The notes beneath the pieces were generated by a model that saw only the letters and a list, made by a program, of their open reading frames with translations, was not told the origin of the DNA and ran no database searches. Below are positions 902-57,140 of a DNA stretch of 64,000 nucleotides, piece after piece. Source of the stretch: a virus; IMG/VR virus record IMGVR_UViG_3300032224_001477, positions 1 through 64,000 of that record; one strand, written 5' to 3'. The position numbers and the translations under genes were made by a program. How positions within the stretch are numbered: position 1 is the first letter of the stretch; each line of letters starts with the position of its first letter.

Positions 902-930
902 AGTATGCATTACTGGCGTTGTTTTGTCAA
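902..930 (-). promoter_or_regulatory. Sigma70-type promoter for the capsid gene (TTGACA-17-CATACT) overlapping a 22-bp palindrome
   Basis: Minus strand reads TTGACA aaacaacgccagtaatg CATACT. The palindrome TACTGGC-N8-GTCAATA lies at 911-932. Confidence 0.7.
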
Positions 931-937
931 TACCTAA

Positions 938-1030
938 TTAGATACCGTCAGGAACACTCGGAGCCACAAACTGCAGGGTGAGGACTCTTGTTCCGCTATT
1001 GTAGGAGTAGGATTGGGCGAGTTGTCTCAT
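938..1030 (-). pseudogene. 30-aa mini-ORF, possible truncated gene remnant
   Basis: MRQLAQSYSYNSGTRVLTLQFVAPSVPDGI*, starting 5 nt after the stop of the 547-aa gene. Confidence 0.35.
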
Positions 1031-1035
1031 AGTTT

Positions 1036-2679
1036 TTAGACGTATGCAATGTTGACCACAACATCACCAGCGGTAATTGCGGTTGTGTCAGATGTTGCAA
1101 GACCTCCTGTGATTGAAAAAGCTAGGCCGTTAGTAAATCTAAGTCCGACTCCTCCACAATCAAAAGGAATAGTTGAATTTGGAGGTATGGGTATTGTGAA
1201 TGTCGGAGTTGAGGTTCCAACGGTAATAGCTATTGAAGTATTAAATAGTTTAAGATATTTAAATGAAGAGGTAAGGTTTGTGACATTGCACATATAAAGA
1301 ACACATTGAACTGTGCGTATATTTGTAGCGTTTGTGCCAGCAGCAGAAATTGTTAAGTAGTTTGAAAATGTACCGATGCTTGCTCCTGCCGCACTCCCCC
1401 CTACTGGAGTTGAATTTACAGATGGAGTATTTGCAACACTTACGCTTTGTACGTTTGTATTTGTACTTCTTGGGTTAAGTGTATAAGCAAAGTTGTAAGT
1501 CGAGCTAGTTCCAACTGTCGTTATTCTTAACCTAAAATATCTTGCGCCAAATAATCCAACCCTACACAAGCTGCTGAGTTGTGTTGCTGAGAAGGAATTT
1601 GTGACTGTTGGTGATGTATTGCTAACGGTTAAGACAGTTGTCGAAAACCATGTTGAGTTATCATTTGAAAGTTGAGGAGTTACATAAGCATTTATCGGCC
1701 ATGTTCCGCTAAATTGAATGCTCGCTTCCGCAAAACCACTAACATCGGTTGATGCAATTAAATCAGTTCCAACCACAGATGTTCCAGATATACTTCCAGT
1801 TCCAGTTGTAAGAGCTTGATTATTTGCAATTACTGTTCCGCTTACTGGCACTGCCGTGGCTCTGAGTTGAGTATCTGTAAGAGGTTGCGAAAGCCCTGTA
1901 TTGGCTGTGACGGTTCCGCTAACTGGAACAGTTCCGTTGACATTGACGTTTAGCCTTCCGCTTGAATCCACGCTCAATCCACGGAGGTTTGTTCCATCGG
2001 TTCCTCCCATGAGGTTTGCGTCGGTTGGGGCGGTTGATCCAGTAGCCCCACCAGAGGAAAGCATTACATCCAATCTGCGTGTAGATCCCTGAGTGGTTGA
2101 GGTGATTGCATTCCCGGAACCATCACGTGTATTTGAACTGATTGTCCCGCTAACGGGAAGTGGGTTGGAAGAATCGTTCTTGACCTCTACTTCGTTGCTA
2201 ACAGTAATAGTCCCCGAAGTGATCGTAATCGACCCGCTACCCCCGATATCGACCGGGACCCTTCCACTACTTAGAGCGGGAAGTTTGCCGTCGATGCTGT
2301 TAAGAGAACTATTTGCGGTAACCTGGTTTGCTTCGGTAGAAACTCCAGAAACGGAAACTGGAACAACCGAGGCACGAAGCTCGGAATTTGTCAAAGGCCC
2401 GTCGACTGTCAATGAACCGCCGTTGTCTGTAACAGCAAGACTGGTGTTCTGCACACTAACATTCTGCGTAGAGGGGAAAGTGACTTGCATATTCTCCAAG
2501 GCAGACAAACTTGTGGCTCCCAATTCCACCGTCCCGTCGACTGTCAGGGAACCGCCGTTATCTGTAACGGCAACCGTGCCGTCCACCAAATGATGCGGTG
2601 TATGTACCCCAGCTGTGTCAGTCGTCTTTAATATCTGGGGTGAAGCAGAAGAGTCTAAAACTGAGAGGTTGTTGGCCAT
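1036..2679 (-). CDS. Ser/Thr/Gly-rich virion fibre or decoration protein with internal repeats
   Basis: Repeats AVTDNGGSLTVDG x2 and PLTxxxLRAxxVPVS x2, beta-rich composition, located in the head gene block. Confidence 0.6.
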   Translation of the reverse strand: MANNLSVLDSSASPQILKTTDTAGVHTPHHLVDGTVAVTDNGGSLTVDGTVELGATSLSALENMQVTFPSTQNVSVQNTSLAVTDNGGSLTVDGPLTNSELRASVVPVSVSGVSTEANQVTANSSLNSIDGKLPALSSGRVPVDIGGSGSITITSGTITVSNEVEVKNDSSNPLPVSGTISSNTRDGSGNAITSTTQGSTRRLDVMLSSGGATGSTAPTDANLMGGTDGTNLRGLSVDSSGRLNVNVNGTVPVSGTVTANTGLSQPLTDTQLRATAVPVSGTVIANNQALTTGTGSISGTSVVGTDLIASTDVSGFAEASIQFSGTWPINAYVTPQLSNDNSTWFSTTVLTVSNTSPTVTNSFSATQLSSLCRVGLFGARYFRLRITTVGTSSTYNFAYTLNPRSTNTNVQSVSVANTPSVNSTPVGGSAAGASIGTFSNYLTISAAGTNATNIRTVQCVLYMCNVTNLTSSFKYLKLFNTSIAITVGTSTPTFTIPIPPNSTIPFDCGGVGLRFTNGLAFSITGGLATSDTTAITAGDVVVNIAYV

Positions 2680-2680
2680 A

Positions 2681-4611: not shown

Positions 4612-4659
4612 ATATATATCTTATTGACAGACTTGTGCCATTATGGCAAGCACAAAATA

Positions 4660-6870: not shown

Positions 6871-6904
6871 GTGAATGTCTATTCTGTCTACTGTCAGTTA
6901 AAAG

Positions 6905-8620
6905 TCAATAATTTAACACAGGATCTTTATTGATGTCGATCACGCGGTCCAACCGGCGAGCCTGCTCTTGCCAACCCCCACTCTTCCTTGCCATGACGGT
7001 CCCGCCGGCCATTGCTCCAACTCGAACCCGAATACACTCCAATCCCACAAAGGCTGCGTCCGCCAAATCGGGACTCTTCCCTACCCGCGACTTGTAGTCT
7101 CGCTTGGACTCTACGACCAGCTTACCTCCGGCCATCGTGGTGTATTTCCTGCTGGTTAGTTCCCTGGCCAACTCTGGAATCACGCCTTTCAACTGACCGG
7201 AACGCATAAATTCAACACCACCAAACCAAAGCTCGCTTACCTTATTCCCGTATTTGTCCTTGGCCTCCACCATCGAACTTGAGCTGATCGGCAGAGTACT
7301 GGGCTTTTCTCCAAACTTGACCCGCAAGATTCTTGGAGACCACGTCTCGGAGATAATGTCGCAAAGCGGATCCCCCGCGCCGGTGGCGTCGACCGCCAGA
7401 TATTCCGGTGGAACTCCTTGCTTTTGACATTCGGCCATAACTTGCCGAGCCACCTGAAAGTTTCTGGGCTGTGGGTCGTTTACATTTTCTCTGATGATAG
7501 TGAAATCTTTAAAGTTCACGGTAGGCCCAGCTTCTTCCGTTCGTCCGTACTCCAAGAAATACAGCACCGTTCTGTCTCCACCGTTGGTAAACGAAGGATC
7601 GAGTCCAGCAACTACCTTGGGTGGTTCAATCCACTTGGGAGCTTTATCGACCTCGAACTTGCGGAAGTCTGCCTCCGAGTAAATAGACTCCTCTGCCCCG
7701 CCTGGAGCTGGAAAGGAACGAATAAACCGCCAGAAAGAGATACTGTGCTCGCCGTCGTGGTCTTCCGCGTGCCGGAGTTGCTTAGTCGTAAGCAAAAACG
7801 GCCAGGCGTCGTCATGCTCAAGGTTGGGCGTCTTGGCTCCGTCCAAGTGAAGGCACAAGCCAAGCTTTGTATTCCACTCCTCCTTATCGACCGTGACCGA
7901 GTTCCATCCACCCACGGGGGTGGCAAACATACCAAAGGGGTCGTATTGACTGGAAAAGTTACCCAAGGCGATGCATTGAAACGTAGGGTTAGCGTTTAGA
8001 TTGGAGATAGCTTCGAAGACCGAGTTGGTCACGTCGGTGGCCTCGTCGATGATAAGGAACACCCGCTGGTTCTTAAGACCGATAAGTTTGGCCGTGGCCT
8101 CCTTCTCTTTATCAGGGCTGGAGGGTACCAGAGTTATGGACGACCTATCGCTGGACTCCCCTTCCGCCAAAATAATCTTACCCATGGAGTCTATCAATTT
8201 CCCGGGAAAGCCTGGAACCTGCAAAAATCGCTCACGGATGCCTCCCCAAAGGCGTTTGCGGGCTTCCCGGATAGATGTGCTGGTAACCAGGACAAGGGTC
8301 TCGTGGGGGGCGCAAAGCCAGTTCACCAACCCCCACATGGCAAAGGTGGCCGTCTTGCCGCTGGACTTGGGGCCGGAGATAGCAAGGTAGTCCTGCTCGC
8401 AAGCTGCCTGAATCATACGCTCCGCCCAAGGGTGCCAGCAGAACCCGGCTTTGTTTCGCGTCTTGTGATACGGCCAGAGAATCTCTACAACATTCTTGAA
8501 ATGCTGAAACTTGCCCAAACCTCCAGTTTCCGGGGTCAAACCCAGCTTAAAAGCCATGAGCTCTATTTCGAGTTTTCCGGCCCCATCTGGCCATACCTTT
8601 CCGTACAAAGTCGTTGGCAT
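6905..8620 (-). CDS. terL: Terminase large subunit
   Basis: Walker A GPKSSGKT, Walker B LIIDEAT, coupling motif LGN, RNase H-like GLDPSF..GGD and SPDLADA. Confidence 0.92.
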   Translation of the reverse strand: MPTTLYGKVWPDGAGKLEIELMAFKLGLTPETGGLGKFQHFKNVVEILWPYHKTRNKAGFCWHPWAERMIQAACEQDYLAISGPKSSGKTATFAMWGLVNWLCAPHETLVLVTSTSIREARKRLWGGIRERFLQVPGFPGKLIDSMGKIILAEGESSDRSSITLVPSSPDKEKEATAKLIGLKNQRVFLIIDEATDVTNSVFEAISNLNANPTFQCIALGNFSSQYDPFGMFATPVGGWNSVTVDKEEWNTKLGLCLHLDGAKTPNLEHDDAWPFLLTTKQLRHAEDHDGEHSISFWRFIRSFPAPGGAEESIYSEADFRKFEVDKAPKWIEPPKVVAGLDPSFTNGGDRTVLYFLEYGRTEEAGPTVNFKDFTIIRENVNDPQPRNFQVARQVMAECQKQGVPPEYLAVDATGAGDPLCDIISETWSPRILRVKFGEKPSTLPISSSSMVEAKDKYGNKVSELWFGGVEFMRSGQLKGVIPELARELTSRKYTTMAGGKLVVESKRDYKSRVGKSPDLADAAFVGLECIRVRVGAMAGGTVMARKSGGWQEQARRLDRVIDINKDPVLNY

Positions 8621-8883
8621 CAGACATTAATTGCCAGTAATCGCTGTTTTGTCAATAAAAATTTGAGGTCCTTTTTGTAGCAAAGCCTTGTTTTGCAACA
8701 ACTTGGTGCGGTGGCTGAGTGGTCTAAAGCGACGGTTTGCTAAACTGCTCACTGTCAATAATATATACACATTTTGTCTAGGCTTTTCTTGAGTAAAAAC
8801 GACTTACAGTTGACACTCATGACACGGGTACGGTCATAGAATGTATATCTTTTCCTTGACATCAGACATTAATTGTCAGTAAT
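8614..8883. repeat. 28-bp direct repeat (8614-8641, 8856-8883) flanking the attP-like region
   Basis: TTG[G/A]CATCAGACATTAATTG[C/T]CAGTAAT, 26/28 identical. Confidence 0.85.
8705..8745 (+). other. 5' half of tRNA-Ser(GCT); putative attP core
   Basis: GGTGCGG TG GCTGAGTGGTCTAAAGC G ACGGT TTGCTAA AC gives acceptor 5' strand, D arm and anticodon arm with GCT at 8739-8741. No variable arm, T arm or 3' acceptor follows. About 150 bp upstream of the integrase. Confidence 0.8.
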
Positions 8884-8896
8884 GTCTCGTTTAAAT

Positions 8897-10150
8897 ATGA
8901 ATAAACAATTCAAGCCGATTGAAGTGCAAGACGGCTTTGCAAATGTGAAAATCTATCAGTGCGTAAATAATAAGGATTATTTAACGTACATGGTTACGTG
9001 GTGGGCCGAGGGGAAAAGACAGCGTCGTGCGATTGCAGATCTTTCGGAAGCCAAGCGCGAGGCTCGTAAAATTGCCAGGGATCTTGCGGACGGTCGGGCA
9101 TCAATGGTTTCAGTCTCTACCAAGGAGCTGAGTTATTTTAGAGATCTTGAAAAAAAGATGGGCGGCACTCCGCTAAGCGAGGCCGTTGCTCTGTGGTTGC
9201 AAAATAGCGAAAGCAAGTTGCCTCAAATCACCGTAAGCGAGGTTTTGAAGGAAATGCTAAACATAAAGCTGAACGACACCTTTATTGAAAAACGCCAGAA
9301 ACAAACCCTTCAACAGCGTTGGGGCAAATTTGAAAAGGTTTTTGGGGAGCGAATTGTGTCCACCATCAAGGCCAAGGAACTGGACTCCTTCTTATCTAAC
9401 CCGGAATGGCAGCCTAGAACCCGTCAGCACTATCGTGGGGCTATCAGTATGATTTTTGATTACGCCAAGCGGAAAGATTACTTGGAGCCAGACAAAGACC
9501 ATCAGGCTGAAAAGACTGAAAGTATCCGAGTTAACGACGCAAAGCTGGAAAGCTGGTCAGTTGAAGATATGGCTTTAATCCTTAAACACGCCACAAAAAG
9601 AACGATACCCTGGATTGTTTTGGGCGCCTTTGCGGGCATCAGGTCTGCTGAAATTGACAGGCTGAGCTGGGAAGATATCGACTGGTCTAGTAATTTGATA
9701 CTGATCAAGGGCAAGCTTGTAGGTGGTTCTAAATCAAGGGCTAATAACGATAGAGCCATAGCTATGACCGCTAATCTAAAAGCTTGGCTTAGCCCTTTTA
9801 GGACATATAAAGGTAATATACTCAAAAGCCTAGGTGTAACTAGTGCAAACAAAGACATTTACAACGCGGTTAATGAGGTAATTCACAAGATTCATAAGGA
9901 AAAACCATTATTCACTTGGAAGCAGAATGCGAATCGTCACAGTTTTGCTACGTATTACTTAGCTTTAACTGGAGATGCTTCAACAACAGCACTTGCGATG
10001 GGCAACAGCCCAACCATGTTGCTGCGTCGGTACAAAACCATCCAGGTGGATGGGAAAACAGTGACCCGGGCTATGGCAGAGAAGTACTTTGCCATCATGC
10101 CGGGCGAAGGAGCCACAAACAAGAATGAGGAGTCACGAAAGATCGAGTAG
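8897..10150 (+). CDS. int: Tyrosine recombinase / phage integrase
   Basis: Catalytic motifs GIRSAEI (R), NANRHSFA, MGNSP...RRY (Y). The ORF track start at 8873 lies in the promoter/repeat, so ATG 8897 is preferred. Confidence 0.92.
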   Translation: MNKQFKPIEVQDGFANVKIYQCVNNKDYLTYMVTWWAEGKRQRRAIADLSEAKREARKIARDLADGRASMVSVSTKELSYFRDLEKKMGGTPLSEAVALWLQNSESKLPQITVSEVLKEMLNIKLNDTFIEKRQKQTLQQRWGKFEKVFGERIVSTIKAKELDSFLSNPEWQPRTRQHYRGAISMIFDYAKRKDYLEPDKDHQAEKTESIRVNDAKLESWSVEDMALILKHATKRTIPWIVLGAFAGIRSAEIDRLSWEDIDWSSNLILIKGKLVGGSKSRANNDRAIAMTANLKAWLSPFRTYKGNILKSLGVTSANKDIYNAVNEVIHKIHKEKPLFTWKQNANRHSFATYYLALTGDASTTALAMGNSPTMLLRRYKTIQVDGKTVTRAMAEKYFAIMPGEGATNKNEESRKIE

Positions 10151-10310
10151 TCAGACCGTAAAAACAATAAGCCTACCCAAGCACATGGCTAAATTCCTCG
10201 AAGAGGAGAGCCGCAGAATAGGGGTAAACAACGTTTCAGGATTGGTCAGAATTGTGTTAGCGCAGTACATCGACGCGCATGGTAAGAAAAATAATAAAAA
10301 AGGCCAGTAG
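10125..10310 (+). CDS. Ribbon-helix-helix (CopG/Arc-like) DNA-binding protein
   Basis: VKTISLPKHMAKFLEEESRRIGVNNVSGLVRIVLAQYI matches the RHH pattern. Overlaps the int stop. Confidence 0.7.
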   Translation: MRSHERSSSQTVKTISLPKHMAKFLEEESRRIGVNNVSGLVRIVLAQYIDAHGKKNNKKGQ

Positions 10311-10399: not shown

Positions 10400-10696
10400 A
10401 TGAATCTAATATTGGAAGCTCACTCATTCAAAGTAGCGGTCACTCCTTCCAATAAACTTCACATCTTTGTCGAGAACGTAAACCCCTCCGAAATCAGCAA
10501 ACAAATTCCCGAAAAAATTTATTCCGTAAAGGAAGCTGCCTCTCGTCTAAAAGTCGGCGACCGCACAATCCGTCGGTACTTAAATAACAAACGTCATCCC
10601 CTCCCTCACTCAAAAGCCGGTGGAATAATCCGCATTTGTGAGTCGGATATCCAGGCGTGGCTCGCGAATGAGAAATTCGGAGTCGCACGTGAATAG
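10400..10696 (+). CDS. xis: Excisionase-like HTH_17 protein
   Basis: IYSVKEAASRLKVGDRTIRRYL...LPHSKAGGIIRICESDIQAWL. Confidence 0.8.
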   Translation: MNLILEAHSFKVAVTPSNKLHIFVENVNPSEISKQIPEKIYSVKEAASRLKVGDRTIRRYLNNKRHPLPHSKAGGIIRICESDIQAWLANEKFGVARE

Positions 10697-11016: not shown

Positions 11017-11181
11017 ATGACTGTTGGAGAACTGTTGGAAAAACTGCAAAAGGTAAGCCCTTCCCTCGACATATGCGTCGATGTGGATTCGGACTGCTTC
11101 GATATACAGGAAGTTCAGACCTGGCGAAGTGGAAGTGATGATTCTGAAGGTTCGTTTGTTTCGTTGATCATCGAAACTTGA
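11017..11181 (+). CDS. Small hypothetical protein (54 aa)
   Basis: MTVGELLEKLQKVSPSLDICVD..., translationally coupled to both neighbours. Confidence 0.55.
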   Translation: MTVGELLEKLQKVSPSLDICVDVDSDCFDIQEVQTWRSGSDDSEGSFVSLIIET

Positions 11182-12452
11182 ACCTCTTTCCTTGGCAGAA
11201 GGAAAACGCGTCCCAGTTAATGGACGCCTTGATCAGCAACCGCGTGGCGTTGGACGCTAGCGATTGCGGAACAGGAAAAACAGTCACGGCGGCCTTTGTC
11301 GCTAAGCAGATGAATATGCCCGTGGCGGTGATATGTCCTAAAGCAGTCATACCTTCCTGGAAGCATTGGCTTAAAGAAGCTGGCGTCGAACCCTTGTTTG
11401 TCATTAACTACGAAAAACTCCGAACCGGAAAAAAGCACGGCAAATGGGTTGCCAAAAAATGGCAGTGGGAGCTCCCCTCCTCTACCCTTCTGATTTTTGA
11501 CGAGGTTCATAAGTGCAAAGGATACAGCAGTCAGAACGGCAAGATCCTGGGTGCGTCTAAAGCCGACCATACCGTCTTGATGCTGTCGGCTACGGCCGCT
11601 CAGAACCCCCTGGACATGCGTTGGACTGGCGACCTCCTAGGCATCCATACCGGGGCAAACTATTGGGGCTGGCTCAAGACCATGAAGGTGGCGCAAGCCC
11701 CTTGGGGCGGCTTTCAGTATTACGGAGGCAAAGAAGGTCTTCTTCAGATTCACGCACATATATTCCCCAAGCGTGGCGTGCGCACTCGCGTGGAAGAGCT
11801 GGGGGATGCCTTCCCTCAAAACAACGTCATGTCCGAGGTCTTCGATATTGATGACCGCATCGGCAAGCTCTACGGCCAGATGGAGGCCGAGCTGGCGGCC
11901 TTAGCTGAGGCTAAATCCAACGATTTTGACCCTTCTGAGCCACGTACGAGGCTTTTAAGGCTTCGACAAGAGGTTGAGTTGCTTCGAGTTCCGGTGCTGA
12001 CGGAAATGGCCAAGGAGCATGTGGAAGCGGGCTGTAGCGTGGTGATCTTTACCAACTTCATGCAGACGTGCCGGACGCTTATGGAGCGTTTAAATGCCCC
12101 TGCAATCCACGGAGAGCAAAGCGCAGAAGAGCGTCAGGAGGCAATCGACAAGTTTCAAGCGAACAAAGAGCACATCATCATCGTGCAAATTCAAGCCGGC
12201 GGGGTCGGGCTCTCACTTCACGATTTACACGGCCGCCCTCGAGTAAGTTTGGTGTGCCCGACGTACTCGGCGATCGATTTAAAACAGGCTCTTGGTCGCA
12301 TTGCACGCACCGGGTCGAAGAGTCATTGCAGACAATACTTGGTTTACGCGGCGAATTCGGTTGAAGAACAAGTCGCACGCAAAACAAAATCCAAAATCCG
12401 TGAAATTGACTTGCTTAATGACGGGGATTTGGTAGTAACGTTGGCCTCATGA
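11178..12452 (+). CDS. SF2 (SNF2-like) helicase
   Basis: GTGKT, DEVH, SAT, AGGVGLSL and QALGRIAR motifs. Confidence 0.9.
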   Translation: MNLFPWQKENASQLMDALISNRVALDASDCGTGKTVTAAFVAKQMNMPVAVICPKAVIPSWKHWLKEAGVEPLFVINYEKLRTGKKHGKWVAKKWQWELPSSTLLIFDEVHKCKGYSSQNGKILGASKADHTVLMLSATAAQNPLDMRWTGDLLGIHTGANYWGWLKTMKVAQAPWGGFQYYGGKEGLLQIHAHIFPKRGVRTRVEELGDAFPQNNVMSEVFDIDDRIGKLYGQMEAELAALAEAKSNDFDPSEPRTRLLRLRQEVELLRVPVLTEMAKEHVEAGCSVVIFTNFMQTCRTLMERLNAPAIHGEQSAEERQEAIDKFQANKEHIIIVQIQAGGVGLSLHDLHGRPRVSLVCPTYSAIDLKQALGRIARTGSKSHCRQYLVYAANSVEEQVARKTKSKIREIDLLNDGDLVVTLAS

Positions 12453-17490: not shown

Positions 17491-17670
17491 ATGGATAACG
17501 CGAGGTACATAGTGTTGAGAGACGGTTCAAGAGTGTCCGATCGGACACACCGGACGAAACTGGACGCACAAGTCGAGGCTGATTACTGGCACGATATCGT
17601 CAGGAAGTGGCCCGATGGATCTGTGATCCGCATCGAAACAATCTATTTCAAGAACCGCGAACAGGAGTAA
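17491..17670 (+). CDS. Small hypothetical protein (59 aa)
   Basis: MDNARYIVLRDGSRVSDR..., SD AGGAG, fills the polA-primase gap. Confidence 0.55.
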   Translation: MDNARYIVLRDGSRVSDRTHRTKLDAQVEADYWHDIVRKWPDGSVIRIETIYFKNREQE

Positions 17671-20965: not shown

Positions 20966-21199
20966 ATGCCACTAGGTAAAAGAGACTACGCCAAGGAATA
21001 CCGGGAATATCACGGTAAGCCTGCTCAAATTAAACGTCGTGCTGGCCGTAACGCTGCCCGAAGATCGATGACCAAACGTCGTGGATTGGCTGCTATGCGT
21101 GGGAAAGACGTCAACCACAAGGACGGAAATACCCTGAATAATGCGGCGTCGAACCTGAATCTTGAGTCCAAGAGCGTGAATCGCGGACGGAAGTATTGA
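20966..21199 (+). CDS. Small HNH endonuclease
   Basis: GKDVNHKDGNTLNN..SNL......NR motif. Confidence 0.7.
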   Translation: MPLGKRDYAKEYREYHGKPAQIKRRAGRNAARRSMTKRRGLAAMRGKDVNHKDGNTLNNAASNLNLESKSVNRGRKY

Positions 21200-21231
21200 C
21201 TAATTCCAGACAGTATTTAATATAAAACCTT

Positions 21232-21555
21232 ATGGCATACGAACCCTCCAGCAGCGATAACGAGAATTATTCTTTACGGAAAATCAATCAGTTGGCTTCG
21301 GATTCTGAAAAAGATTCGAGCCTTGCCCTTGGCCAATACGGTGCTGTTTACAAGACTGCTGCCGGCGCTTTGTCCGGTGGACCTTGGGGAGCTATTCAGG
21401 CGACGGCCACGGCGGTCGTCAGCGTAACCTCGAGCAACTGGACTAATAGTGACGGGACGTCGGCTGTTGATATCGCAGCTGGATCAACGATCTTTGGTAA
21501 CTTTACCGCAATCACGCTCACCAGCGGCAAAATCATCGCTTACAAAAGCGCCTAA
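21232..21555 (+). CDS. Putative virion structural protein
   Basis: Beta-rich C-terminus (IFGNFTAITLTSGKIIAY); preceded by a palindrome containing TTGAC. Confidence 0.5.
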   Translation: MAYEPSSSDNENYSLRKINQLASDSEKDSSLALGQYGAVYKTAAGALSGGPWGAIQATATAVVSVTSSNWTNSDGTSAVDIAAGSTIFGNFTAITLTSGKIIAYKSA

Positions 21556-22629: not shown

Positions 22630-22673
22630 CCAGTTAATATTGACTGTAAAAAGACAGTAACTAGCATCCATAT

Positions 22674-23943: not shown

Positions 23944-24270
23944 TTAGCCACGACGAGGCATCCTACTGTTCAACCAGGCTCTTCGCTTAGAACACGCTTT
24001 ACAGGTGCTTAAACGACTCCCAAACACCGAATCCAGGGCTTTCGCGACAGGCAAGGCAAGAACATGCACCAGATCCCCCAACCCCCTTGATTCGCAGTAT
24101 CCCGGGTCCTTGGCACAGCTCTGTCGGATGATCTCCTTCCGGTACAATTCCCTGGCTTGATACTCCCATGGGTCCTGACCTTTGGACGTCAGTATCTGGG
24201 TGATTAGGTCGTCCAAGCTTTCGTGGACACGCTTTATTGCACCTTCCTCGTATTCCCAAATGTGTTTCAT
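23944..24270 (-). CDS. Hypothetical protein with GLGD...CxxC..RR..LN motif
   Basis: 108-aa ORF; C-terminal Cys motif. Confidence 0.6.
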   Translation of the reverse strand: MKHIWEYEEGAIKRVHESLDDLITQILTSKGQDPWEYQARELYRKEIIRQSCAKDPGYCESRGLGDLVHVLALPVAKALDSVFGSRLSTCKACSKRRAWLNSRMPRRG

Positions 24271-24313
24271 GACATTCCGTTGACATTAAACCAACATACC
24301 CCAAAATTGGTAA

Positions 24314-24885: not shown

Positions 24886-24932
24886 ATTCTGTGGGCATGG
24901 AGAAGTGAATCAATTAGTCAACGTAAGACAGA

Positions 24933-25193: not shown

Positions 25194-25426
25194 TACTCAA
25201 AACAATATAATGACTGACTCCAGTCAGCAATAAAAATAAATTAAATTTTTCTTATACGTGTATCTATAGAACTTAAACTAAAGGGGGGGAGGGTGGGTGT
25301 GGGGGTAGTGCCACATTATCAAAGTGTTACACCGCCCCGAAGCCTACTTGTATTATTAGCAGGAAGAAGAGAGAACCAGATGGTTTTCTCTATCTAAAAT
25401 CCCCTGTTATAGATAGGAGTAACACC

Positions 25427-26279: not shown

Positions 26280-26381
26280 ACTGTTGCAACGATTGTACCA
26301 GACGTTGCAACTCTATGCAAGCTACTGACAAACAACAGTCATTTTAACCACGATCGATAACCCATAACCAAGGAGACAACC

Positions 26382-27580: not shown

Positions 27581-27644
27581 TTATTGACAGGACTATGCTA
27601 GTAGTTCAATCCTTTAGCATCTTCCTGACAGAAAGGATAACACC

Positions 27645-30511: not shown

Positions 30512-30526
30512 ATTACTGACTGTTAT

Positions 30527-30724
30527 ATGTCAGCAACTTACACCATTCCTAACTGGTTTAGCCCACCTATGTGTCGCGCAATCATTCGCGCACACAAGGA
30601 AGGCTACAAAGTTCAGGAGATCAGTCATCTATTCAACATTAAGTACAACCAGATCTATCGGTTCCTTGTGCTCAGCCAGCACTTGATCCCAACCAAGAAA
30701 GTTAAACCTAATGAAGATAAATAA
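30527..30724 (+). CDS. Small HTH DNA-binding protein
   Basis: IIRAHKEGYKVQEISHLFNIKYNQIYRFL HTH; its ATG lies inside the 22-bp palindrome 30514-30535. Confidence 0.65.
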   Translation: MSATYTIPNWFSPPMCRAIIRAHKEGYKVQEISHLFNIKYNQIYRFLVLSQHLIPTKKVKPNEDK

Positions 30725-35801: not shown

Positions 35802-35874
35802 TTACTGACTGATGATGGCCAGTAAGGGGCGGTCGTTCCTATCCGACCGTCCCTGAAAACCATAAGGAGGACAC

Positions 35875-36290: not shown

Positions 36291-36925
36291 CGTTAACTAT
36301 GGCTGAGTCCCACATCGGGGCTTTGTCCAATCCAAGTAAGATGCCCGGCTGGGGCTGGGGCATCTCCGCACTTAACTGCAACATCGGCACCAAGCTAAGA
36401 GAAGTAATCGATAGCGTATGCGCTGAGTGCTACGCCCTACGCAATCATTACGTTATGCAGAATGTAATACAGGCTCACGCTAAGCGTCAGCTTGCATCCA
36501 ACCGCGATGATTGGGTCGACCTCATGGCGTTTATGATCAACATGAAATCAAAGAACAAAGGCGGAGACGCCTTCCGTTGGTTTGATTCTGGTGATCTTCA
36601 ATCGGTAGAATTACTGACAAAGATCTGTCAGGTCTGCGTCAAGACACCTAAGGTAAAGCACTACCTACCAACGAAGGAATACAAGATTGTACAGGACTAT
36701 GTCCAGGGTGGCGGGGTTATCCCCGACAACCTGTGCATCAGGCTGTCCGCTTACATCATCGACGGTCCACTACCCCAAGCCTTAGCCCAACGCCTCGGCG
36801 TACAGACAGCTGTGACCGTAACTAGCAACGCTACCTGCCCAGCTAAACAGCAGAACAACAAATGCTTGGACTGCCGCATTTGCTGGGACAAAGCCACACC
36901 CAACGTCAGCTACATCAAGCATTAA
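36287..36925 (+). CDS. Gp88-family (radical-SAM-like Fe-S) protein
   Basis: LSNPSKMP, C...C..CYA, FRWFDSGD, LPTKE, NLCIRLS, CP...C.DC..CW...Y..H. Confidence 0.75.
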   Translation: MTLTMAESHIGALSNPSKMPGWGWGISALNCNIGTKLREVIDSVCAECYALRNHYVMQNVIQAHAKRQLASNRDDWVDLMAFMINMKSKNKGGDAFRWFDSGDLQSVELLTKICQVCVKTPKVKHYLPTKEYKIVQDYVQGGGVIPDNLCIRLSAYIIDGPLPQALAQRLGVQTAVTVTSNATCPAKQQNNKCLDCRICWDKATPNVSYIKH

Positions 36926-40742: not shown

Positions 40743-40784
40743 ATGTATTACTCCTTTTTAGCTACTGTCAACCATTAGTCAATA

Positions 40785-41094: not shown

Positions 41095-41898
41095 CTACCC
41101 GTTAAAGAACCCTGGGAACTTATATTTAATTGGCTGTTGATAATCGAAGGTTGGTTTGTTCAGACTGTTAGCGTAGTCAGCGAGCATCATGTTGGTCGCG
41201 TTCGACCCAGCTGAATCCCCTGCCCCAGCAAATCCCTCAAGCAATCCGGCTATGCCACCCATGATATCTAACCCCGAGCTAGTAGAACTCCCCGCCACTG
41301 CCCCGGCGCCCATACCCTTCCCCATCAATGCGCCTCGACTTGGGCTGTTCGAAGACATGAGGTCTTCTTTTTTTAAGGAGAACCCAGGCTCTAAGGGTTG
41401 ACTGGCGGCCTGATTGCCTACGGGCATTGAAGACTTAATCTCTGGAAGCAGGCGATCAACGCTCTTCATTGCGCCCATGATAGAGTTTGAATATTCTCGG
41501 GGGTTGGTTGTAGCGTACCCAGAGGTGGCTAAGGCGTTGGCAAAACCCGCAGGGTCTGCTTGCCCGCGAACATTTTTGTACCTGTCTGTAGATAAGAACT
41601 TGGTGTACTCATCTGCGTATTGGTTGAAGTCATTAAACTTTTTGAAGTCGGCTTCAGTGTTAATCACCTTGCCGTTAACGGTTTCTTTTGTCGGCATCCG
41701 CACGGACGGCCCGCCCTTCCACTCTTTAATCCCGCCGAAATTATTTGCTGCCTTCGCAAGCTTGCTTGTCCCCCAACCAGATTCCATAGCCCACTGCGCC
41801 ATGACCGCATTACTTGGGACACCTAATCTTGCGGCTACGCGTTCGGCAGGGACAACTGCTGCTTTGATAAAGTCGATCTGTTCTTGTCTTGTAGCCAT
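41095..41898 (-). CDS. GH73 (FlgJ-like) glucosaminidase, probably virion-associated
   Basis: AQWAMESGWG, NNFGGIK, T.E, RY, GYAT.P.Y motifs; low-complexity C-terminal tail. Confidence 0.85.
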   Translation of the reverse strand: MATRQEQIDFIKAAVVPAERVAARLGVPSNAVMAQWAMESGWGTSKLAKAANNFGGIKEWKGGPSVRMPTKETVNGKVINTEADFKKFNDFNQYADEYTKFLSTDRYKNVRGQADPAGFANALATSGYATTNPREYSNSIMGAMKSVDRLLPEIKSSMPVGNQAASQPLEPGFSLKKEDLMSSNSPSRGALMGKGMGAGAVAGSSTSSGLDIMGGIAGLLEGFAGAGDSAGSNATNMMLADYANSLNKPTFDYQQPIKYKFPGFFNG

Positions 41899-41939
41899 AT
41901 ATTTATATTCTAATTACTTACGTTTTGTGGTCAATAATC

Positions 41940-50900: not shown

Positions 50901-53900
50901 TATGCGATCCGAGAGCTTCTTTCGCTCAGCTGTGTTTATAGCGCCTTTCTTTTTCGGAGCATTCCGCCCACCGTCTTTAGAGAGGTCGCCAAACTCCTGT
51001 GCTTCCTTAGCCTGAAGTTGTTCCAACTCGCTAAACAGCGCAGTTAATTTGTTATCGAGATCGGTAATAGATGGCTCGGGCGGGACTTGAAGATCAAGAA
51101 AGCCACGCACCGGTTTGGCTTCAACTGCTTTTTTAGCACCACGTTCTTTTTTGGTCGCAGGCGTAGTTGCCGTCGAAGGCATAGGCAGGATCGGTTGCCC
51201 CCACCAGGTCTCACCCTGGGCACCGATGGGTTTTGCCGCATCGGATCTGGTAAACAAGTCGTCAGGATCAACGGTTCCTATATTTCCGTTTTGCTTGGCT
51301 TCAGCGACCACCTCTGTTTCACGTTCGTACGTACCCCAGAAAGATTTTCTGTAAGCCGCATCGGGTTGATAAAATGGCTCAAGTTCGACAAGATACTGTT
51401 CTCCTTTGGACCGGTTAAGTTCAATTACCTGGGGGTTGGTTTGAGCAATTTGTGAAGCTTCATCCACGCCCACTGATTCAACTCCATCGACTTCGTCACC
51501 AATCACTCGGATGTTCTTAACCTTTACAGTATAGGTGTTGTCTTTTTTGGAATAAGCAAAAGCCGTAAATGGAAATGGGGTTAGCTTTGTAATGCCCCCG
51601 GGAGCGTCTTTTGGGTTATATATCTTGCGACCCTCAACATCTTTTTGTGTGCCAACTATTTTTCTGCGTCTTTCAATTTCTTCAGATGTTTTAGCGGAAA
51701 GCAGTTCGCGAGCTTGCCGCCTGCTTAGAATAATCCCCTCAAGGATATTCTCCCCTTGGTTGCGTATACGCGCACTTAAGCTCAGGTTCTTATCTGGATC
51801 GTTCGGGTCTAGCGCTTGAGCTTCACCCAGCACACGATCCATATTTGGAATAGACGCGCTTCTTGTAGACCTTTTGCCCCCTGAAGGTATCTTTTGCATT
51901 TCTTTTTGCACGAAAGCTTGCAGGTCCGTTCCCTCCAAACCATTTTGCTGACCTGTCTTTTCGGCCCGGGCTCGCACTTCCTCAAGTTGAGCTGCTGTTC
52001 CTCTGGACGTTGTACCGCGTCTTTTCTTAGGCGCTGTGGCAAAGGGGAAAATATTTGCTGCTGTGCTACTTAGTAGTTTTACGTTTGCCGGAATCTTTTG
52101 ACCCGCAAATATTTCTCTTTCTCTTGTTTCCGAAAAAGTACTTACCCGCCCCGCCCCTTGATGAGCACCAAACATAAGCCAGTATTCTTTTCCGGGGTTT
52201 GCCTTTGCGTACTGTAAGAATCTTTCAAGCTGAACTCGAGCTTCTCTTGGGTTAAACGACTCGTTCGCACCTTGGCGATTGTTTTCGGCCGAGGGCCCTT
52301 TAAATCCTTTTTCGTATACCGGCAATCCATACGTTCGCCCATTAGGTCCCGTCTTGCCTACTTCAGCACCAAGCTCCTTTGCAATTTTACCATAAACACC
52401 GTTGTGGTTCCCGTTAACGTCTGTTCCAAAAACCAGAACACGGTCATTGGCTCGGATATCGACGGTCGGGTCAAACTGACTCTTAAGAGCCTCCGCGCTC
52501 GCCGCACGAGTCGTATACCTCAAAGGGTTGATTGAGTTCTCAATTATTTTTTCTGGGGATGCTGATACCGCAAAGTCTGTGCCCGAAGCCTTTGACCTAC
52601 CCTCGATAATGTAATCCAGGTACTCAGCTCTTGCTTCCGGATCATTAGGCACCGACCCAAGCTCTTGAAATAACTCCCTGGCTATATTCTGCGAATCCTT
52701 AATGAGAGCTTCTTTATCGGTACCCCTAGTAAATCTCGCCGTATTCTGAGGTTCGATGATAGTAAACTTTGAAGCGTTCGGGTTATCCTTGAGGAATCGA
52801 GCAACCCTTGGGATAAGAACATTTGCGCTCCTACCGGCTATAAATGTTTGCCTCGCGTCGGTGGCGATGTTTCGTTTCCTAGACTGCCCAATATCGTTTT
52901 TGTAAGTGTCCGGGTTCCCAATAACCACGACGAAATCTGAATTGTTAATGTTATATGAGTCCGCCTCGTCTGGATTTTCGGTCGTATCGAAGCTTGAGAG
53001 CAGGTCTGATTCCGACTCGGCAAGCGAAGGGTTCTTAGAACGAACTTTCAAACCACCACGATTTACCCCGTGTTGATCTGCCAGGCTTTCAGCTACACCA
53101 GCAAAAGGTCCAAAACCGCTACCGAGGTAGGTAAAGGCGCCCTTTTTCTTGGGTTTTTCTGTGTCTTGTCCTGCAGGGGCGGGGTTTTGAGATCCGTCGA
53201 CCTCATCCAAAGCAGCGTTCTCAACTATGTCAGGCCCGTTCAGAACATCGTTTACCTCAGTGGAATTAGTCGGTCGAAGCTCAGGAGTTTGGTTATTAGC
53301 AACTTTTTTAGCTTCTTTAGTCAACGCGCTAGACGCCTCCCTTGGGAGCTCAAGCTGGGCTTTTTGTTTTGCGGCTTGGATTGTAGGTGCGCTGGTCTGA
53401 CTCGGGAATAAAGTATTGGTCTTAGTCTTCTCTTCAACAGCTTGTTCTGTCTGAGGAATAAGAGTACGGGCTCCACCAAGGCCAAGCTCAACCATACCAG
53501 GAACCATTTCACCAATGAACTCAGCCCAGGCGTCGGCCGGATCGGACTTTTCCCCAATCGCTGCACTACCCGCAACTTCACCAGCCGCACCCAACATACC
53601 TTGTAGAGCCGCATCTCCAATACCTCGAGCGGCCAAACCCTTTAAACCTTTAGCGGTCTTGAAAAGCATTTCCGAAGGAAGTGCCACAGAAGCCGCATCA
53701 AATGCCCCGACTGTAACTCCTCTAGCAAGCGCCCGGTTCTTCATCTCTTGAACTTTTGCTGGGTCGCGAAGAACAGCAGCTACGGCTTCGGTGTTCTGAA
53801 GATCCCCGACTTGCGCACGCAAGTCTTCCAAGATCTTTGATCCACCCTCAACGAAGGCTGATCCAGCACCAACACCTGCCATAGTAGAGAGCAGGACGGC

Positions 53901-55498: not shown

Positions 55499-55501
55499 AA
55501 A

Positions 55502-56680
55502 TTATCTCCCAAATAAGGGTACGGTATTTCGTGAAGACCAGGGTGCAGAAGGAGCATACGGGCTGAAGCTTCCGGCTCCGCCACCGCCGAGACCGGTTGC
55601 CTTCGGGATAGGGGTCGCCCCAAAAGACGAAGCTCCTCCACCACCACTCGCCCCATTGCTCCCTCCAAAGATTCCGCCAAGCCCACCAAAAAGATTGCCC
55701 ATACCACCCAGCCCGCCGGAAGAACCGGCTGCGCCCCCACCAATACCGCCCAAAGCGGATACACCAGAAAGCAGTCCACTGGCCAAACCACCAAAGCCCT
55801 GACCGCTGACGGCGCCCTCGATACCGCCACCCAAACCAGAACCAATCTTGGCTCCAGCCATCGTACCGATTCCAGGAGCAATGAAAGAACCTGCGATAGC
55901 TCCTAGACCGCCACCGATAAGACTGCCAAGCCCACTACTGCCCCGCTGTTGGAACTTCATCAGGTCGTAGTTGTACTTGTTCATGGCGTTTGTATTCGCC
56001 GTGTTTGTATCCGCAATAGCCTGATCGTTCTTGATTCCGGTGTTGTAGTACCGCTGTTGATTCTCGATGTCGTTATTGTACGTGGTCGTGTAGTTGGTCA
56101 GGTTCGTATTAAACGCAACCTCTTGGTTTGAGATGGCTGTATTCGCGTCCTGCCTGGCTAGGACATCTGCGGGGCTGAACAAAAGATCGGTGGGCTTGAC
56201 CGGTGTGAGCGCATTGGCATCACCCAGAAGAGTTTGATAGTTTTGAAGCCCCGCGTTCTTCATGTCCATTGTGGTAGCGCCAAAGTCGCGAGCGGTAAGG
56301 TTTCTTGCTCGTTGGCTGGAGGAGCCGGCGCCCGAGGAAAAATCCCTAAAGGCCGCGCTGCCAAACAATTGATCTTCTACATCCTGGGGAATCTCTCCAC
56401 GCATCTGGGCTGAAACTGTGTCCGCCGCAGATTTAAGATTGTCCATGACCCCAGGGGCAACACCTTCAAGGGTGCGCTGGGCCGATTGATTTGCCGCACT
56501 AGAAAAACCCTCCAGATCCCCAAGAACGCTCTGCTGTTGCATGAAGTCAGGGTACGCATTGAGGTAAGAGCCAAGATCGTTTAGATCCAGGTTTAGTAGC
56601 TGACCAAGTTTCTCCAGATCAATCTGAGAAAACTTTGGAGCCTGAAGTTCTGGTGGTTTAGGAGGACTTTTCTTACCCAT
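55502..56680 (-). CDS. Putative DNA pilot/ejection protein
   Basis: MGKKSPPKPP start, Asn/Gln-rich coil, C-terminal glycine zippers. Confidence 0.6.
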   Translation of the reverse strand: MGKKSPPKPPELQAPKFSQIDLEKLGQLLNLDLNDLGSYLNAYPDFMQQQSVLGDLEGFSSAANQSAQRTLEGVAPGVMDNLKSAADTVSAQMRGEIPQDVEDQLFGSAAFRDFSSGAGSSSQRARNLTARDFGATTMDMKNAGLQNYQTLLGDANALTPVKPTDLLFSPADVLARQDANTAISNQEVAFNTNLTNYTTTYNNDIENQQRYYNTGIKNDQAIADTNTANTNAMNKYNYDLMKFQQRGSSGLGSLIGGGLGAIAGSFIAPGIGTMAGAKIGSGLGGGIEGAVSGQGFGGLASGLLSGVSALGGIGGGAAGSSGGLGGMGNLFGGLGGIFGGSNGASGGGGASSFGATPIPKATGLGGGGAGSFSPYAPSAPWSSRNTVPLFGR

Positions 56681-56681
56681 A

Positions 56682-57104
56682 TTACAGTCCCATCCTGGCT
56701 AGCCGGTCGAAGAACGACGCTGGGTAGATCGACGTGCGATCAAAATGTTTATGTCTGGAAAAACCTACATGTGTAGGCCGTCCGAGGTTTTCAAATACAG
56801 GTTTAATCATGCGACCCAAACCCCCATGCAAAAGACTGACCGTCCAGTCCACCCAGAGAAGCTTTCCGTCAGCCTTGTGAGCCCAGCGATCCCGAGCCTG
56901 CTCAGGACCATCAACTCTGCGAAACAAAGTAACCCCTTGCACCGCCTTGTATTTGTTTACATCCCGATCCAGAACAAGGGCCATATTTTGCATATGCCAT
57001 TGGACGGTCTTTTCCGGCTCCTGGCAGTGAGGAAGCATGACTTTCACAAAATCGATGGTTTCCTGTATAAAGGGAGGATTGGCCGGAGTCATGTGTATTG
57101 TCAC
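56682..57104 (-). CDS. Putative GNAT-like protein of the virion block
   Basis: Size, position before the ejection proteins, and LLWVDW...VGFSR pattern. Confidence 0.35.
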   Translation of the reverse strand: MTIHMTPANPPFIQETIDFVKVMLPHCQEPEKTVQWHMQNMALVLDRDVNKYKAVQGVTLFRRVDGPEQARDRWAHKADGKLLWVDWTVSLLHGGLGRMIKPVFENLGRPTHVGFSRHKHFDRTSIYPASFFDRLARMGL

Positions 57105-57140
57105 TATTCTGCCAGTAATAATATACAGATCAACAACATT

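What the first reader, a model, noticed from the sequence alone, without database searches (positions are those of the whole stretch)
911..57117. Genome-wide 22-bp palindrome regulon TAYTGDC-N8-GHCARTA whose half-site doubles as a -35 box
Seen, all with exactly 8-nt spacers: 911 TACTGGC/GTCAATA (MCP); 4622 TATTGAC/GCCATTA; 6889 TACTGTC/GTCAATA (portal); 21194 TATTGAC/GACAGTA; 22638 TATTGAC/GACAGTA; 25208 TAATGAC/GTCAGCA; 26323 TACTGAC/GTCATTT; 27582 TATTGAC/GCTAGTA; 30514 TACTGAC/GTCAGCA; 35803 TACTGAC/GCCAGTA; 36612 TACTGAC/GTCAGGT (inside Gp88); 40763 TACTGTC/GTCAATA; 41915 TACTTAC/GTCAATA; 57096 TATTGTC/GCCAGTA. Nearly all sit in the short gaps before gene starts, in both early and structural modules. 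In many, TTGAC is the -35 hexamer and the other half-site fills the spacer; in some the start codon follows a candidate -10 within ~6-10 nt (possibly leaderless). Inference: a single dimeric regulator controls the whole genome through distributed operators (comparable in logic to mycobacteriophage stoperators) rather than through a lambda-type switch.
Basis: partly seen in the sequence, partly recalled or inferred. Interest (0 to 1): 0.75.

Follow-up and report, generated by a model that had tools for sequence, protein, structure and literature searches.

The report
Phage-wide operator dyad sharing attP heptamer
A 76-kb temperate phage of freshwater Verrucomicrobia carries about 20 copies of one 22-bp inverted repeat at its promoters and gene junctions, and the same 7-bp word also marks its integration site, so one protein of the integration module probably controls the whole genome; this kind of phage control is already known, but the tie to the integration site is unusual.

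Summary
All 14 listed sites exist. A weight matrix finds 20 sites in the 76,208-bp genome (18 in the window). They stand clearly apart from background and 15 of 20 are intergenic (p = 3e-13).

They fall into two classes:
- Nine read TATTGAC-N8-GnnAGTA in the direction of the genes. TTGAC is a -35 box, a -10 hexamer follows 2-3 nt after the site, and the start codon usually lies 6-13 nt after that (leaderless or nearly so).
- Eleven (TACTGAC/TACTGGC type) have no -35/-10 pair and sit at gene junctions.

Across diverged relatives the half-sites are conserved but the spacers are not. There is no base-pair covariation. Candidate host genomes lack the box.

New findings:
- The upstream heptamer recurs as 4-6 co-oriented single copies around attP.
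- A sister temperate clade uses TCTTGAC at both promoters and attP.
- An integrase-less sister clade has plain promoters and neither element.

The most likely reading is a set of operators for a phage protein of the int module (integrase arm domain, Xis-like HTH_17 or RHH). The binder is unidentified.

This is a variant of dispersed-operator (stoperator/P1 C1) control. The scan has reported similar regulons in other phages.

The parts
911..932 (-). Class A site TATTGACAAAACAACGCCAGTA; -10 CATACT at 907-902
   Evidence: ortholog in G011 keeps both halves and the -10 while the spacer differs
4622..4643 (-). Class B site TAATGGC-N8-GTCAATA, 10 nt before ATG 4611; the only site whose better half faces downstream
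6889..6910 (-). Class A site before the putative portal gene; -10 CAGAAT at 6886-6881, GTG at 6870
12416..12437 (+). Weak class B site (14.7 bits) inside the 3' end of gene 11178-12452, 11 nt before ATG 12449
17584..17605 (+). Class B site between the DNA polymerase gene and gene 17675-19792
21194..21215 (+). Class A site; -10 TAATAT at 21218-21223, ATG at 21232, no SD (leaderless type)
22638..22659 (+). Class A site; -10 TAGCAT at 22662-22667, ATG at 22674, no SD (leaderless type)
24173..24194 (-). Class B site within the minus-strand block
24267..24288 (-). Weak class B site between stop 24286 and ATG 24270; conserved in G011
25208..25229 (-). Class B site 14 nt before the gene of an 86-aa protein with a signal peptide (24933-25193)
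26323..26344 (.). Class B site in the divergent gap; it ends 2 nt upstream of the -35 of the promoter of gene 25818-26279
27582..27603 (+). Class A site with a weak -10 (TTCAAT); ATG at 27645 with SD
30514..30535 (+). Class B site overlapping ATG 30527 of the 65-aa HTH gene
35803..35824 (+). Class B site just after the stop of gene 34959-35801 (rII-like region)
36612..36633 (+). Class B site inside gene 36287-36925; 21 of 22 nt identical in G011 although the protein is only 69% identical
40763..40784 (-). Class A site; -10 TAAAAA at 40760-40755, ATG at 40742
41915..41936 (-). Class A site after the 4167-aa gene; -10 TAGAAT at 41912-41907, ATG at 41898 (leaderless type)
57096..57117 (-). Class B site 3 nt before ATG 57092; conserved in G001/G011
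8633..8639 (-). Single heptamer TACTGGC (context T-TACTGGC-A) in the terL-side arm of attP, over the -10/TSS region of the terL promoter
8651..8657 (-). Single heptamer TATTGAC, which is the -35 of the terL promoter; it is followed by a second heptamer in direct, not inverted, order
8754..8760 (-). Single heptamer TATTGAC 9 nt from the tRNA-derived attP core; kept in G002 although its core is different
8875..8881 (-). Single heptamer TACTGAC inside the spacer of the int promoter (TTGACA 8856-8861, TAATGT 8880-8885)
8705..8745 (+). attP core: 5' half of a tRNA-Ser(GCT)
   Evidence: the exact 41-mer is found only in 7 Verrucomicrobiota-type MAG contigs
8897..10150 (+). Tyrosine integrase; its N-terminal 65 residues are modelled as 4 strands plus a helix (candidate arm-binding domain, candidate binder)
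10125..10310 (+). 61-aa ribbon-helix-helix protein (candidate binder)
10400..10696 (+). 98-aa Xis-like HTH_17 protein (candidate binder or RDF)
26283..26311 (.). Two GTTGCAAC palindromes 21 bp apart, flanking the -10 (TACAAT, 26297-26292) of the promoter of gene 25818-26279: a separate local operator

Best explanation
The 22-bp element is a protein-binding operator made of a strong upstream heptamer (T)TAYTGRC(A) and a weaker inverted heptamer 8 bp downstream. At nine places the upstream heptamer contains the -35 box TTGAC of a host sigma70-type promoter, and the second heptamer fills the 16-17-nt spacer. The dyad is then centred near -25.5, so a bound protein would keep RNA polymerase off. 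Five of these promoters (21194, 22638, 41915, 6889 and 74194) have no SD, with the start codon 6-10 nt after the -10, and so probably give leaderless or near-leaderless mRNAs. At eleven other places (TACTGAC/TACTGGC type, no -35/-10 pair) the element sits between co-directional genes, often within 0-14 nt of the next start codon, where a bound protein would act as a roadblock. The binder is phage-encoded and probably belongs to the integrase module, because the same heptamer marks both arms of attP and changes together with the promoter heptamer in a sister clade. Shown here: the sites, their placement and orientation, their conservation, the link to attP, and the absence of the box from candidate hosts. 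Inferred: protein binding, repression, transcription start sites, and the binder's identity. My split for the binder is roughly integrase N-domain 35%, HTH_17 Xis-like protein 30%, RHH protein 25%, other 10%.
For: 1. Statistics and placement.
2. Promoter geometry: at 7 window sites the predicted -10 and spacing land exactly on the ORF starts 6870, 21232, 22674, 40742 and 41898.
3. Eleven sites lack a -35/-10 pair.
4. Conservation: in 16 orthologous pairs between G000 and the 85% clade, identity is 96% in the upstream half, 72% in the downstream half, 53% in the spacer and 44-47% in the flanks, and 15 of 16 pairs keep their class.
5. Orientation: the better half faces upstream in 14 sites, downstream in 1, with 5 ties.
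6. Sister clades: the 70% TerL clade (3 complete genomes) has no motif, no comparable dyad and no tyrosine integrase, but has TTGAC-16/17-(-10) promoters, often 6-9 nt before ATG, at orthologous places.
7. attP link: the terL-int gap holds 4, 4 and 6 co-oriented TAYTGRC copies in G000, G002 and G001 (Poisson p 2e-5 to 3e-8), all four in G000 in the context T-heptamer-A, and they are kept in G002 although its attP core is different.
8. Covariation: clade 3 (TerL 62%, Int 38%) has 5 TCTTGAC and no TAYTGRC in that gap. It has TCTTGAC-N8-G at promoters (11 of 16 copies in G012, 12-13 per complete genome against 3-4 for the control pattern). G000 shows no TCTTGAC excess.
9. Host: five MAGs that carry the exact attB tRNA word have the motif only at control level.
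10. Precedents: L5-type stoperators (PMC9283540), P1 C1 with 22 dispersed operators (PMC8546580), and RDFs that also regulate transcription, namely 186 Apl (PMC7498355) and D29 Gp36 (PMC12266134).
Against: No binding or transcription data exist, and the host is uncultured. No recognisable CI-type repressor is present (no HTH_3 or S24 hit), so the binder is unidentified. The half-site centres are 15 bp apart, about 1.4 helical turns, which is unusual for a simple HTH dimer. The presence or absence of the motif with integrase rests on only three lineages. The covariation rests on two heptamer variants that differ mainly at position 2. An integrase or RDF that silences lytic promoters has no established precedent at genome scale. 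Sites also lie inside the minus-strand block 23999-26279, which I take, from position only, to be prophage-expressed; if so, a simple immunity repressor would silence it as well. The gene model used for the intergenic statistics is crude.
Confidence: 0.55

Rival explanations
1. The element is only a conserved promoter family. The whole 22 bp is read by RNA polymerase (host sigma or a phage factor acting as activator or appropriator), and no repressor is involved.
For: Nine sites have the full -35/-10 geometry, and 8 of the 12 best co-oriented sigma70-like candidates in intergenic DNA coincide with the motif. The upstream half, which contains the -35, is the better conserved half. The motif is oriented with transcription.
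Against: Eleven conserved sites have CTGAC or CTGGC instead of TTGAC and no -10. Relatives drive orthologous genes from TTGAC/-10 promoters without the second half. Single heptamers at attP are not followed by a -10. With a consensus -35 and an optimal spacer, no activator is needed.
Confidence: 0.13
2. The heptamers are integrase arm-type (or RDF) sites whose role is recombination or DNA architecture, for example synapsis, Int titration or module exchange. Any effect on transcription is incidental.
For: Co-oriented heptamers lie on both sides of the attP core. The Int N-terminus is modelled as a beta-sheet plus helix, and its nearest matches are weak ones to AP2 (Z 5.9) and P4-like integrase arm domains (Z 4.3-4.6, 20-21% identity). 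A 7-N8-7 layout resembles recombinase core sites. Tandem 11-bp-spaced copies occur in clade 3.
Against: Mosaic boundaries between relatives are not enriched at the sites (3 of 34 boundaries, p = 0.09; 3 of 17 boundaries at gene junctions, p = 0.33). Spacers differ at every site, so the sites could not recombine with one another. The fixed register with the -35/-10 at 9 promoters and the placement just before start codons point to gene expression.
Confidence: 0.12
3. The element is the box of a host transcription factor that the phage has borrowed.
For: Palindromic boxes in phage promoters are often host sites. The half-site TACTG/CAGTA resembles the gammaproteobacterial LexA box (from memory).
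Against: Five Verrucomicrobiota MAGs with the exact attB tRNA word have 1-3 hits each at up to 1 mismatch, against 1-4 for the reversed control. The CTG...CAG spacing is 12, not 10, and the LexA motif I recall for Verrucomicrobia is different (memory). The motif varies between sister phage clades and follows the int module.
Confidence: 0.07
4. The inverted repeat acts as an RNA or single-stranded DNA hairpin, for example as a processing site, a stability element or a translational operator.
For: It lies between genes, several spacers hold the SD of the next gene (G011 sites), and 5-7 of the 7 positions can pair.
Against: The variable pairs 3/20 and 6/17 show no covariation: Watson-Crick counts are at or below the shuffled expectation. 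Hairpins are weak (mean -3.9 kcal/mol, 6 of 20 weaker than -2) and fold inconsistently. Sequence, not pairing, is conserved. At class A sites the predicted transcript starts downstream of the element.
Confidence: 0.04

Closest known systems
Cluster A mycobacteriophage (L5 gp71, TipsytheTRex) repressor with operators and stoperators (PMC9283540; also Streptomyces R4-like phages, PMC10276819)
   Same: About 20 or more copies of one site are spread over a temperate phage genome, both in promoters and in short intergenic gaps. Orientation is tied to the direction of transcription. The L5 site read in reverse contains a -35-like TTGACA (from memory).
   Different: The L5 site is a 13-bp asymmetric word bound by a monomer with an HTH plus a stoperator domain. 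Here the site is a 7-N8-7 inverted repeat, no gp71-like or any CI-like repressor was recognised, the host phylum is Verrucomicrobiota rather than Actinobacteria, and the heptamer also marks attP.
Phage P1 C1 repressor and its 22 dispersed 17-bp asymmetric operators (PMC8546580)
   Same: One phage protein has many operators dispersed over the genome.
   Different: P1 operators are asymmetric, P1 is a plasmid prophage, and no link to an attachment site is known.
Streptomyces phage phiC31 repressor c and its conserved inverted repeats (CIRs) in intergenic regions (from my own memory: Ingham et al. 1994 NAR; Wilson et al. 1995 Mol Microbiol; not retrievable here)
   Same: Highly conserved palindromic operator copies lie in many intergenic regions of a temperate phage.
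   Different: The CIRs are a 17-bp palindrome bound by known repressor isoforms. They are not reported to share a word with attP arms or to embed the -35.
Dual-purpose recombination directionality factors: 186 Apl (PMC7498355), P2 Cox (memory), D29 Gp36, a MerR/Xis-like repressor (PMC12266134)
   Same: A small protein of the integration module binds both at att and at promoters. Tandem 11-bp-spaced copies are seen in clade 3.
   Different: Apl and Cox sites are direct repeats one helical turn apart at a single switch region. Here the promoter sites are inverted with 15-bp register and number about 20 across the genome.
Arm-type sites of lambda/P4-like tyrosine integrases
   Same: Several co-oriented copies of a short word lie on both arms of attP, and the Int has an N-terminal beta-sheet plus helix domain.
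   Different: Arm-type sites are not known to be spread as dyads over the promoters of a whole phage genome.

Membership tests
Repressor-stoperator system (L5 gp71 type) | Twenty or more copies of one site dispersed over the genome, in promoters and in short intergenic gaps | tested here: met
   20 sites: 9 in promoters and 11 at junctions or within genes; 15 of 20 are intergenic
Repressor-stoperator system (L5 gp71 type) | Site orientation correlates with the direction of transcription | tested here: met
   The better half faces upstream in 14 sites, downstream in 1, with 5 ties; the upstream half is 96% and the downstream half 72% conserved
Repressor-stoperator system (L5 gp71 type) | 13-bp asymmetric site bound by a monomer | tested here: not met
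   The site is a 22-bp 7-N8-7 inverted repeat. Single heptamers at attP hint at monomer recognition, but that is inference
Repressor-stoperator system (L5 gp71 type) | gp71-like repressor (HTH plus stoperator domain) encoded by the phage | tested here: inconclusive
   Pfam scans of about 60 ORFs gave no such protein and no HTH_3 or S24 repressor. No direct comparison with gp71 was made
Repressor-stoperator system (L5 gp71 type) | Binding blocks transcription initiation and elongation | not testable with these tools
   Needs EMSA, reporter assays or RNA-seq
Sigma70-type promoter | -35 TTGACa, 16-18 nt spacer, -10 TAnnnT-like hexamer, co-oriented with a downstream gene | tested here: met
   Met for 9 of 20 sites; the predicted geometry lands on ORF starts. 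Not met for the other 11
Sigma70-type promoter | Mapped transcription start (leaderless mRNA) | not testable with these tools
   Inferred only from the 6-10 nt between the -10 and a start codon without an SD
Integrase arm-type sites | Several copies of a short word on both arms of attP | tested here: met
   Window positions 8633, 8651, 8754 and 8875 around the core 8705-8745; conserved in G001 and G002; TCTTGAC copies in clade 3
Integrase arm-type sites | Integrase has an N-terminal arm-binding domain | tested here: inconclusive
   No Pfam arm-domain hit. The model has 4 strands plus a helix, with pLDDT about 80-88 in the best-modelled stretches of residues 11-60; matches are AP2 at Z 5.9 and P4-like arm domains at Z 4.3-4.6, below a safe threshold
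LexA SOS box (gammaproteobacterial type) | CTGT-N8-ACAG spacing and a LexA/S24 protein | tested here: not met
   The motif is CTG-N12-CAG. The phage has no S24 domain and candidate hosts show no enrichment
Dual-function RDF sites (Apl/Cox type) | Direct repeats about one helical turn apart at att and at one promoter switch | tested here: not met
   In this phage the promoter sites are inverted repeats in 15-bp register, and the attP copies are 18 bp or more apart. Tandem 11-bp copies occur only in clade 3

The most novel reading that the evidence does not exclude
In a phage lineage with no recognisable CI-type repressor, the integrase itself (through its arm-binding N-domain), or its partner RDF or RHH, acts as the genome-wide silencer. 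The word it reads in the attP arms is built into the -35 of nearly every strong promoter and into gene junctions, so integration and shut-off of the lytic genes depend on one DNA-recognition specificity that co-evolves at both kinds of site.
Probability: 0.2. Interest if true: 0.85.

Novelty: new variant of a known kind. Interest (0 to 1): 0.55.

Why it matters
Dispersed-operator control is documented mainly for actinobacteriophages and P1. This case would extend it to phages of Verrucomicrobiota, a phylum with almost no known phage biology. It also gives a clean, testable set of host-type promoters, several probably leaderless.

The new element is the shared and co-varying heptamer at attP arms and at promoters, together with its absence from an integrase-less sister clade. 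It points to a physical link between the integration machinery and global transcription control, and it narrows the binder to three small candidate domains that can be expressed and tested in vitro without culturing the host.

Tried and rejected
1. RNA or DNA hairpin: no covariation and weak folds.
2. Host TF box: the motif is at background level in 5 candidate host MAGs.
3. gp65 HTH (30527) as the binder: it has no homologue in G001 or G011, which keep the motif.
4. gp153 (25818-26279) as a CI-like binder: it has an N-terminal three-helix HTH plus long helices, but homologues at 31-37% identity exist in motif-less phages, its putative recognition helix differs between G000 and G011 although the motif is the same, and some family members hit Terminase_5 or DUF1804, so it may be a small terminase or another regulator. 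It is neither confirmed nor excluded.
5. Mosaic-junction or cassette-exchange role: boundaries are not enriched at sites.
6. Generic inverted-repeat and 4-5-mer dyad counts had no power even for the known motif.
8. Prophage relatives in GTDB genomes by TerL: none found. No match in INPHARED phages.
9. Searches with the RHH and Int for further clades returned only the same clades plus clade 3.
10. A paralogue of the Int N-domain elsewhere in the genome: none.
11. Sigma54, MerR-type (19-20-nt spacer) and T7-like promoter readings were considered against the sequences and do not fit.
The 57%-identical gp153 contig was reached through the search for related loci instead.

Full report
**What the window is.** The window is bases 1-64000 of a 76,208-bp IMG/VR virus record with 123-bp direct terminal repeats. 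The genes fall into three blocks:
- Structural genes run on the minus strand, from 39390 to the end of the record and, continuing through the terminal repeat, from 8620 down to 1.
- Early and replication genes run on the plus strand (8873-39393).
- A small minus-strand block lies at 23999-26279.

There is no match in isolated phages and no prophage relative by TerL in GTDB genomes. The exact 41-mer occurs in only seven genome contigs. Six are from Verrucomicrobiota, Methylacidiphilales or Akkermansia-labelled MAGs and one from a MAG labelled only 'bacterium'. A homologue of one phage protein is deposited as 'Verrucomicrobia bacterium'. The host is therefore most likely a freshwater verrucomicrobium (inference).

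**The observation.**
Seven match the consensus exactly; none of 100 shuffles gave a match.
- A symmetrised weight matrix separates 20 sites (14.7 bits or more) from everything else (8.9 bits or less). Shuffled genomes give 0.8 sites at 12 bits or more.
- The half-site alone is hardly enriched, and it pairs with its inverse only at spacer 8.
- Fifteen of 20 sites are mostly non-coding against a 7.9% background (p = 3e-13).
- A de novo search of intergenic DNA returns the dyad as the best motif.

**Two classes.** I oriented each site by the local gene direction.
- Class A, nine sites (911, 6889, 21194, 22638, 27582, 40763 and 41915 in the window; 68657 and 74194 beyond it). These read TATTGAC-N8-GnnAGTA. 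A -10-like hexamer (CATACT, CAGAAT, TAATAT, TAGCAT, TAAAAA, TAGAAT, GATACT) follows 2-3 nt later, which gives a 16-17-nt spacer after TTGACn. At seven of the nine the start codon follows 6-13 nt after the -10. The predicted geometry lands on the ORF starts 6870, 21232, 22674, 40742 and 41898. Five have no SD and look leaderless. Eight of the twelve best co-oriented sigma70-like candidates in intergenic DNA coincide with the motif.
- Class B, eleven sites (TACTGAC, TACTGGC or TAATGnC type). These have no TTGAC and no -10. They lie between co-directional genes, often 0-14 nt before the next start codon. One lies inside a gene (36612).

**Relatives.** TerL searches recovered four groups:
- a 98-99% clade;
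- an 85% clade;
- a 70% clade;
- a 62% clade, found later through the integrase.

The 98% and 85% clades keep the motif: 19 sites of 14 bits or more in G002 and 17 pattern matches in G011.

In 16 orthologous pairs between G000 and the 85% clade (flanking proteins mostly about 40-80% identical), identity is:

| Region | Identity |
|---|---|
| Upstream half | 96% |
| Downstream half | 72% (G16, A19, T21 and A22 most conserved) |
| Spacer | 53% |
| Flanks | 44-47% |

Fifteen of the 16 pairs keep their class.

The 70% clade (three complete genomes) has no motif and no comparable dyad. At orthologous places it has ordinary TTGAC-16/17-(-10) promoters, several 6-9 nt before ATG, and it has no tyrosine integrase. 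So the second half-site is not needed by the polymerase, and it goes with the temperate module.

**Rival readings tested.**
- Hairpin: the variable pairs 3/20 and 6/17 show no covariation and the RNA folds are weak.
- Host box: five MAGs that carry the attB word have the motif at control level.
- Unrelated phages: only single chance hits (the scan was truncated).
- Recombination junctions: not enriched at the sites.

**The link to attP (new).**
- The ~300-bp terL-int gap holds four co-oriented single heptamers in G000 (8633, 8651, 8754, 8875; each in the context T-TAYTGRC-A). G002 has four at the same places although its attP core is different (read from the sequence as a different tRNA-like 3' half). 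G001 has six (Poisson p 2e-5 to 3e-8).
- This gap is the densest heptamer cluster in G001 and ties for the densest in G000 and G002.
- Two of the copies overlap the terL promoter and one lies in the spacer of the int promoter.
- In the 62% clade (Int 38%, HTH_17 42%, two RHH-like ORFs in between) the gap holds five TCTTGAC copies and no TAYTGRC. In that clade TCTTGAC-N8-G(T/G)CA sits at promoters such as the portal promoter. G occupies position 16 in 10 of 11 copies (p = 2e-5). There are 12-13 such sites per complete genome, against 3-4 for the control pattern.
- G000 shows no TCTTGAC excess. The promoter heptamer and the attP heptamer therefore change together, and the integrase-less clade has neither.

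**Who binds.**
- No CI-type repressor was found.
- The HTH at 30527 is missing from the 85% clade.
- gp153 (25818-26279) has an HTH plus long helices, but it has homologues in motif-less phages and may be a small terminase.
- Three candidates remain, all confined to the motif-bearing clades and all conserved in their presumed DNA-contacting parts: the integrase, the 61-aa RHH and the 98-aa HTH_17 protein.
- The Int N-terminus is modelled as four strands plus a helix. Its matches to AP2 and P4-like arm-binding domains are weak and the result is inconclusive.

**Mechanism proposed.** A protein of the int module binds the strong upstream heptamer and, cooperatively, the weaker inverted one. At class A sites this occludes the promoter, because the dyad is centred near -25.5. 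At class B sites it blocks read-through or access to the next gene start. The same protein binds the attP arms and the int and terL promoters. Binding, the direction of the effect (repression) and the transcription start sites are all inferred.

**Comparison with known systems.** The logic matches L5-type stoperators (PMC9283540), P1 C1 operators (PMC8546580) and, from memory, the phiC31 CIRs. RDFs that also regulate transcription are known (PMC7498355, PMC12266134). The differences here are the 7-N8-7 dyad, the shared word with the attP arms, the lack of a recognisable repressor, and the host phylum. Earlier reports of this scan describe similar promoter-embedded palindromes in other uncultured phages, so the general kind is recurrent.

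**Verdict.** This is a new variant of a known kind. Interest is moderate, and would be higher if the integrase-module link proves true.

Noticed in passing
window 26283-26320 (and G011 51995-52075 = L121): The promoter of gene 25818-26279 (TTGCAT-17-TACAAT, ATG 12 nt after the -10) is flanked by the only two GTTGCAAC palindromes in the window, 21 bp apart. In the 85% clade the same place carries a different palindrome (TGTAACG-CC-CGTTACA). This is a local operator whose specificity diverged while the 22-bp dyad stayed the same.
   Followed up: partly
window 8618-8642 and 8860-8884: A 25-nt direct repeat CATCAGACATTAATTGYCAGTAAT flanks the attP core on both sides. One copy covers the terL start and -10 region, the other the int promoter spacer. 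Each contains one heptamer.
   Followed up: partly
G002 (L093) 24640-24720 compared with window 8705-8745: The 98% relative G002 has a different tRNA-like attP core (a T-arm/acceptor 3' half on the other strand) and an integrase only 85% identical, while neighbouring genes are 95-99% identical. This looks like an integration-site switch within one phage species.
   Followed up: no
G003, G004 (L084-L091); window 21218-21232, 22662-22674, 41898-41912: Across the whole phage family, including the integrase-less clade, many genes have a TTGAC/-10 promoter 6-10 nt before a start codon without an SD. This suggests widespread leaderless mRNAs in a verrucomicrobial host.
   Followed up: partly
genome 64541-64757 (beyond the window, inside gene 61481-64780): Four co-oriented TAYTGDC heptamers lie within 216 nt of a coding sequence. 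This cluster ties with attP as the densest in the genome. It is unexplained and may reflect a coding repeat.
   Followed up: no
window 24933-25193 (-): An 86-aa protein with a clear signal peptide (MKKLIAALCVVSFAAGAQA) and an internal repeat lies in the minus-strand block. It is a candidate prophage-expressed exclusion or surface protein.
   Followed up: no
G011 49576-49597 and 51995-52016 (L121): In the 85% clade two class B sites carry the SD of the next gene inside the 8-nt spacer (TACTGAC-AAAGGAGG-GACAATA-c-ATG), so occupancy would also cover the ribosome-binding site.
   Followed up: no
G013 36551-36588, G014 41532-41558, G012 29332-29561: In clade 3 the TCTTGAC heptamer also forms tandem direct repeats at 11-bp (also 9- and 13-bp) spacing, the pattern typical of RDF or arm-type binding arrays.
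   Followed up: partly
window 940, 22629, 27639: Three module replacements between G000 and G002 begin or end within 50 nt of a site, but over all boundaries the association is not significant (p = 0.09 and 0.33).
   Followed up: yes
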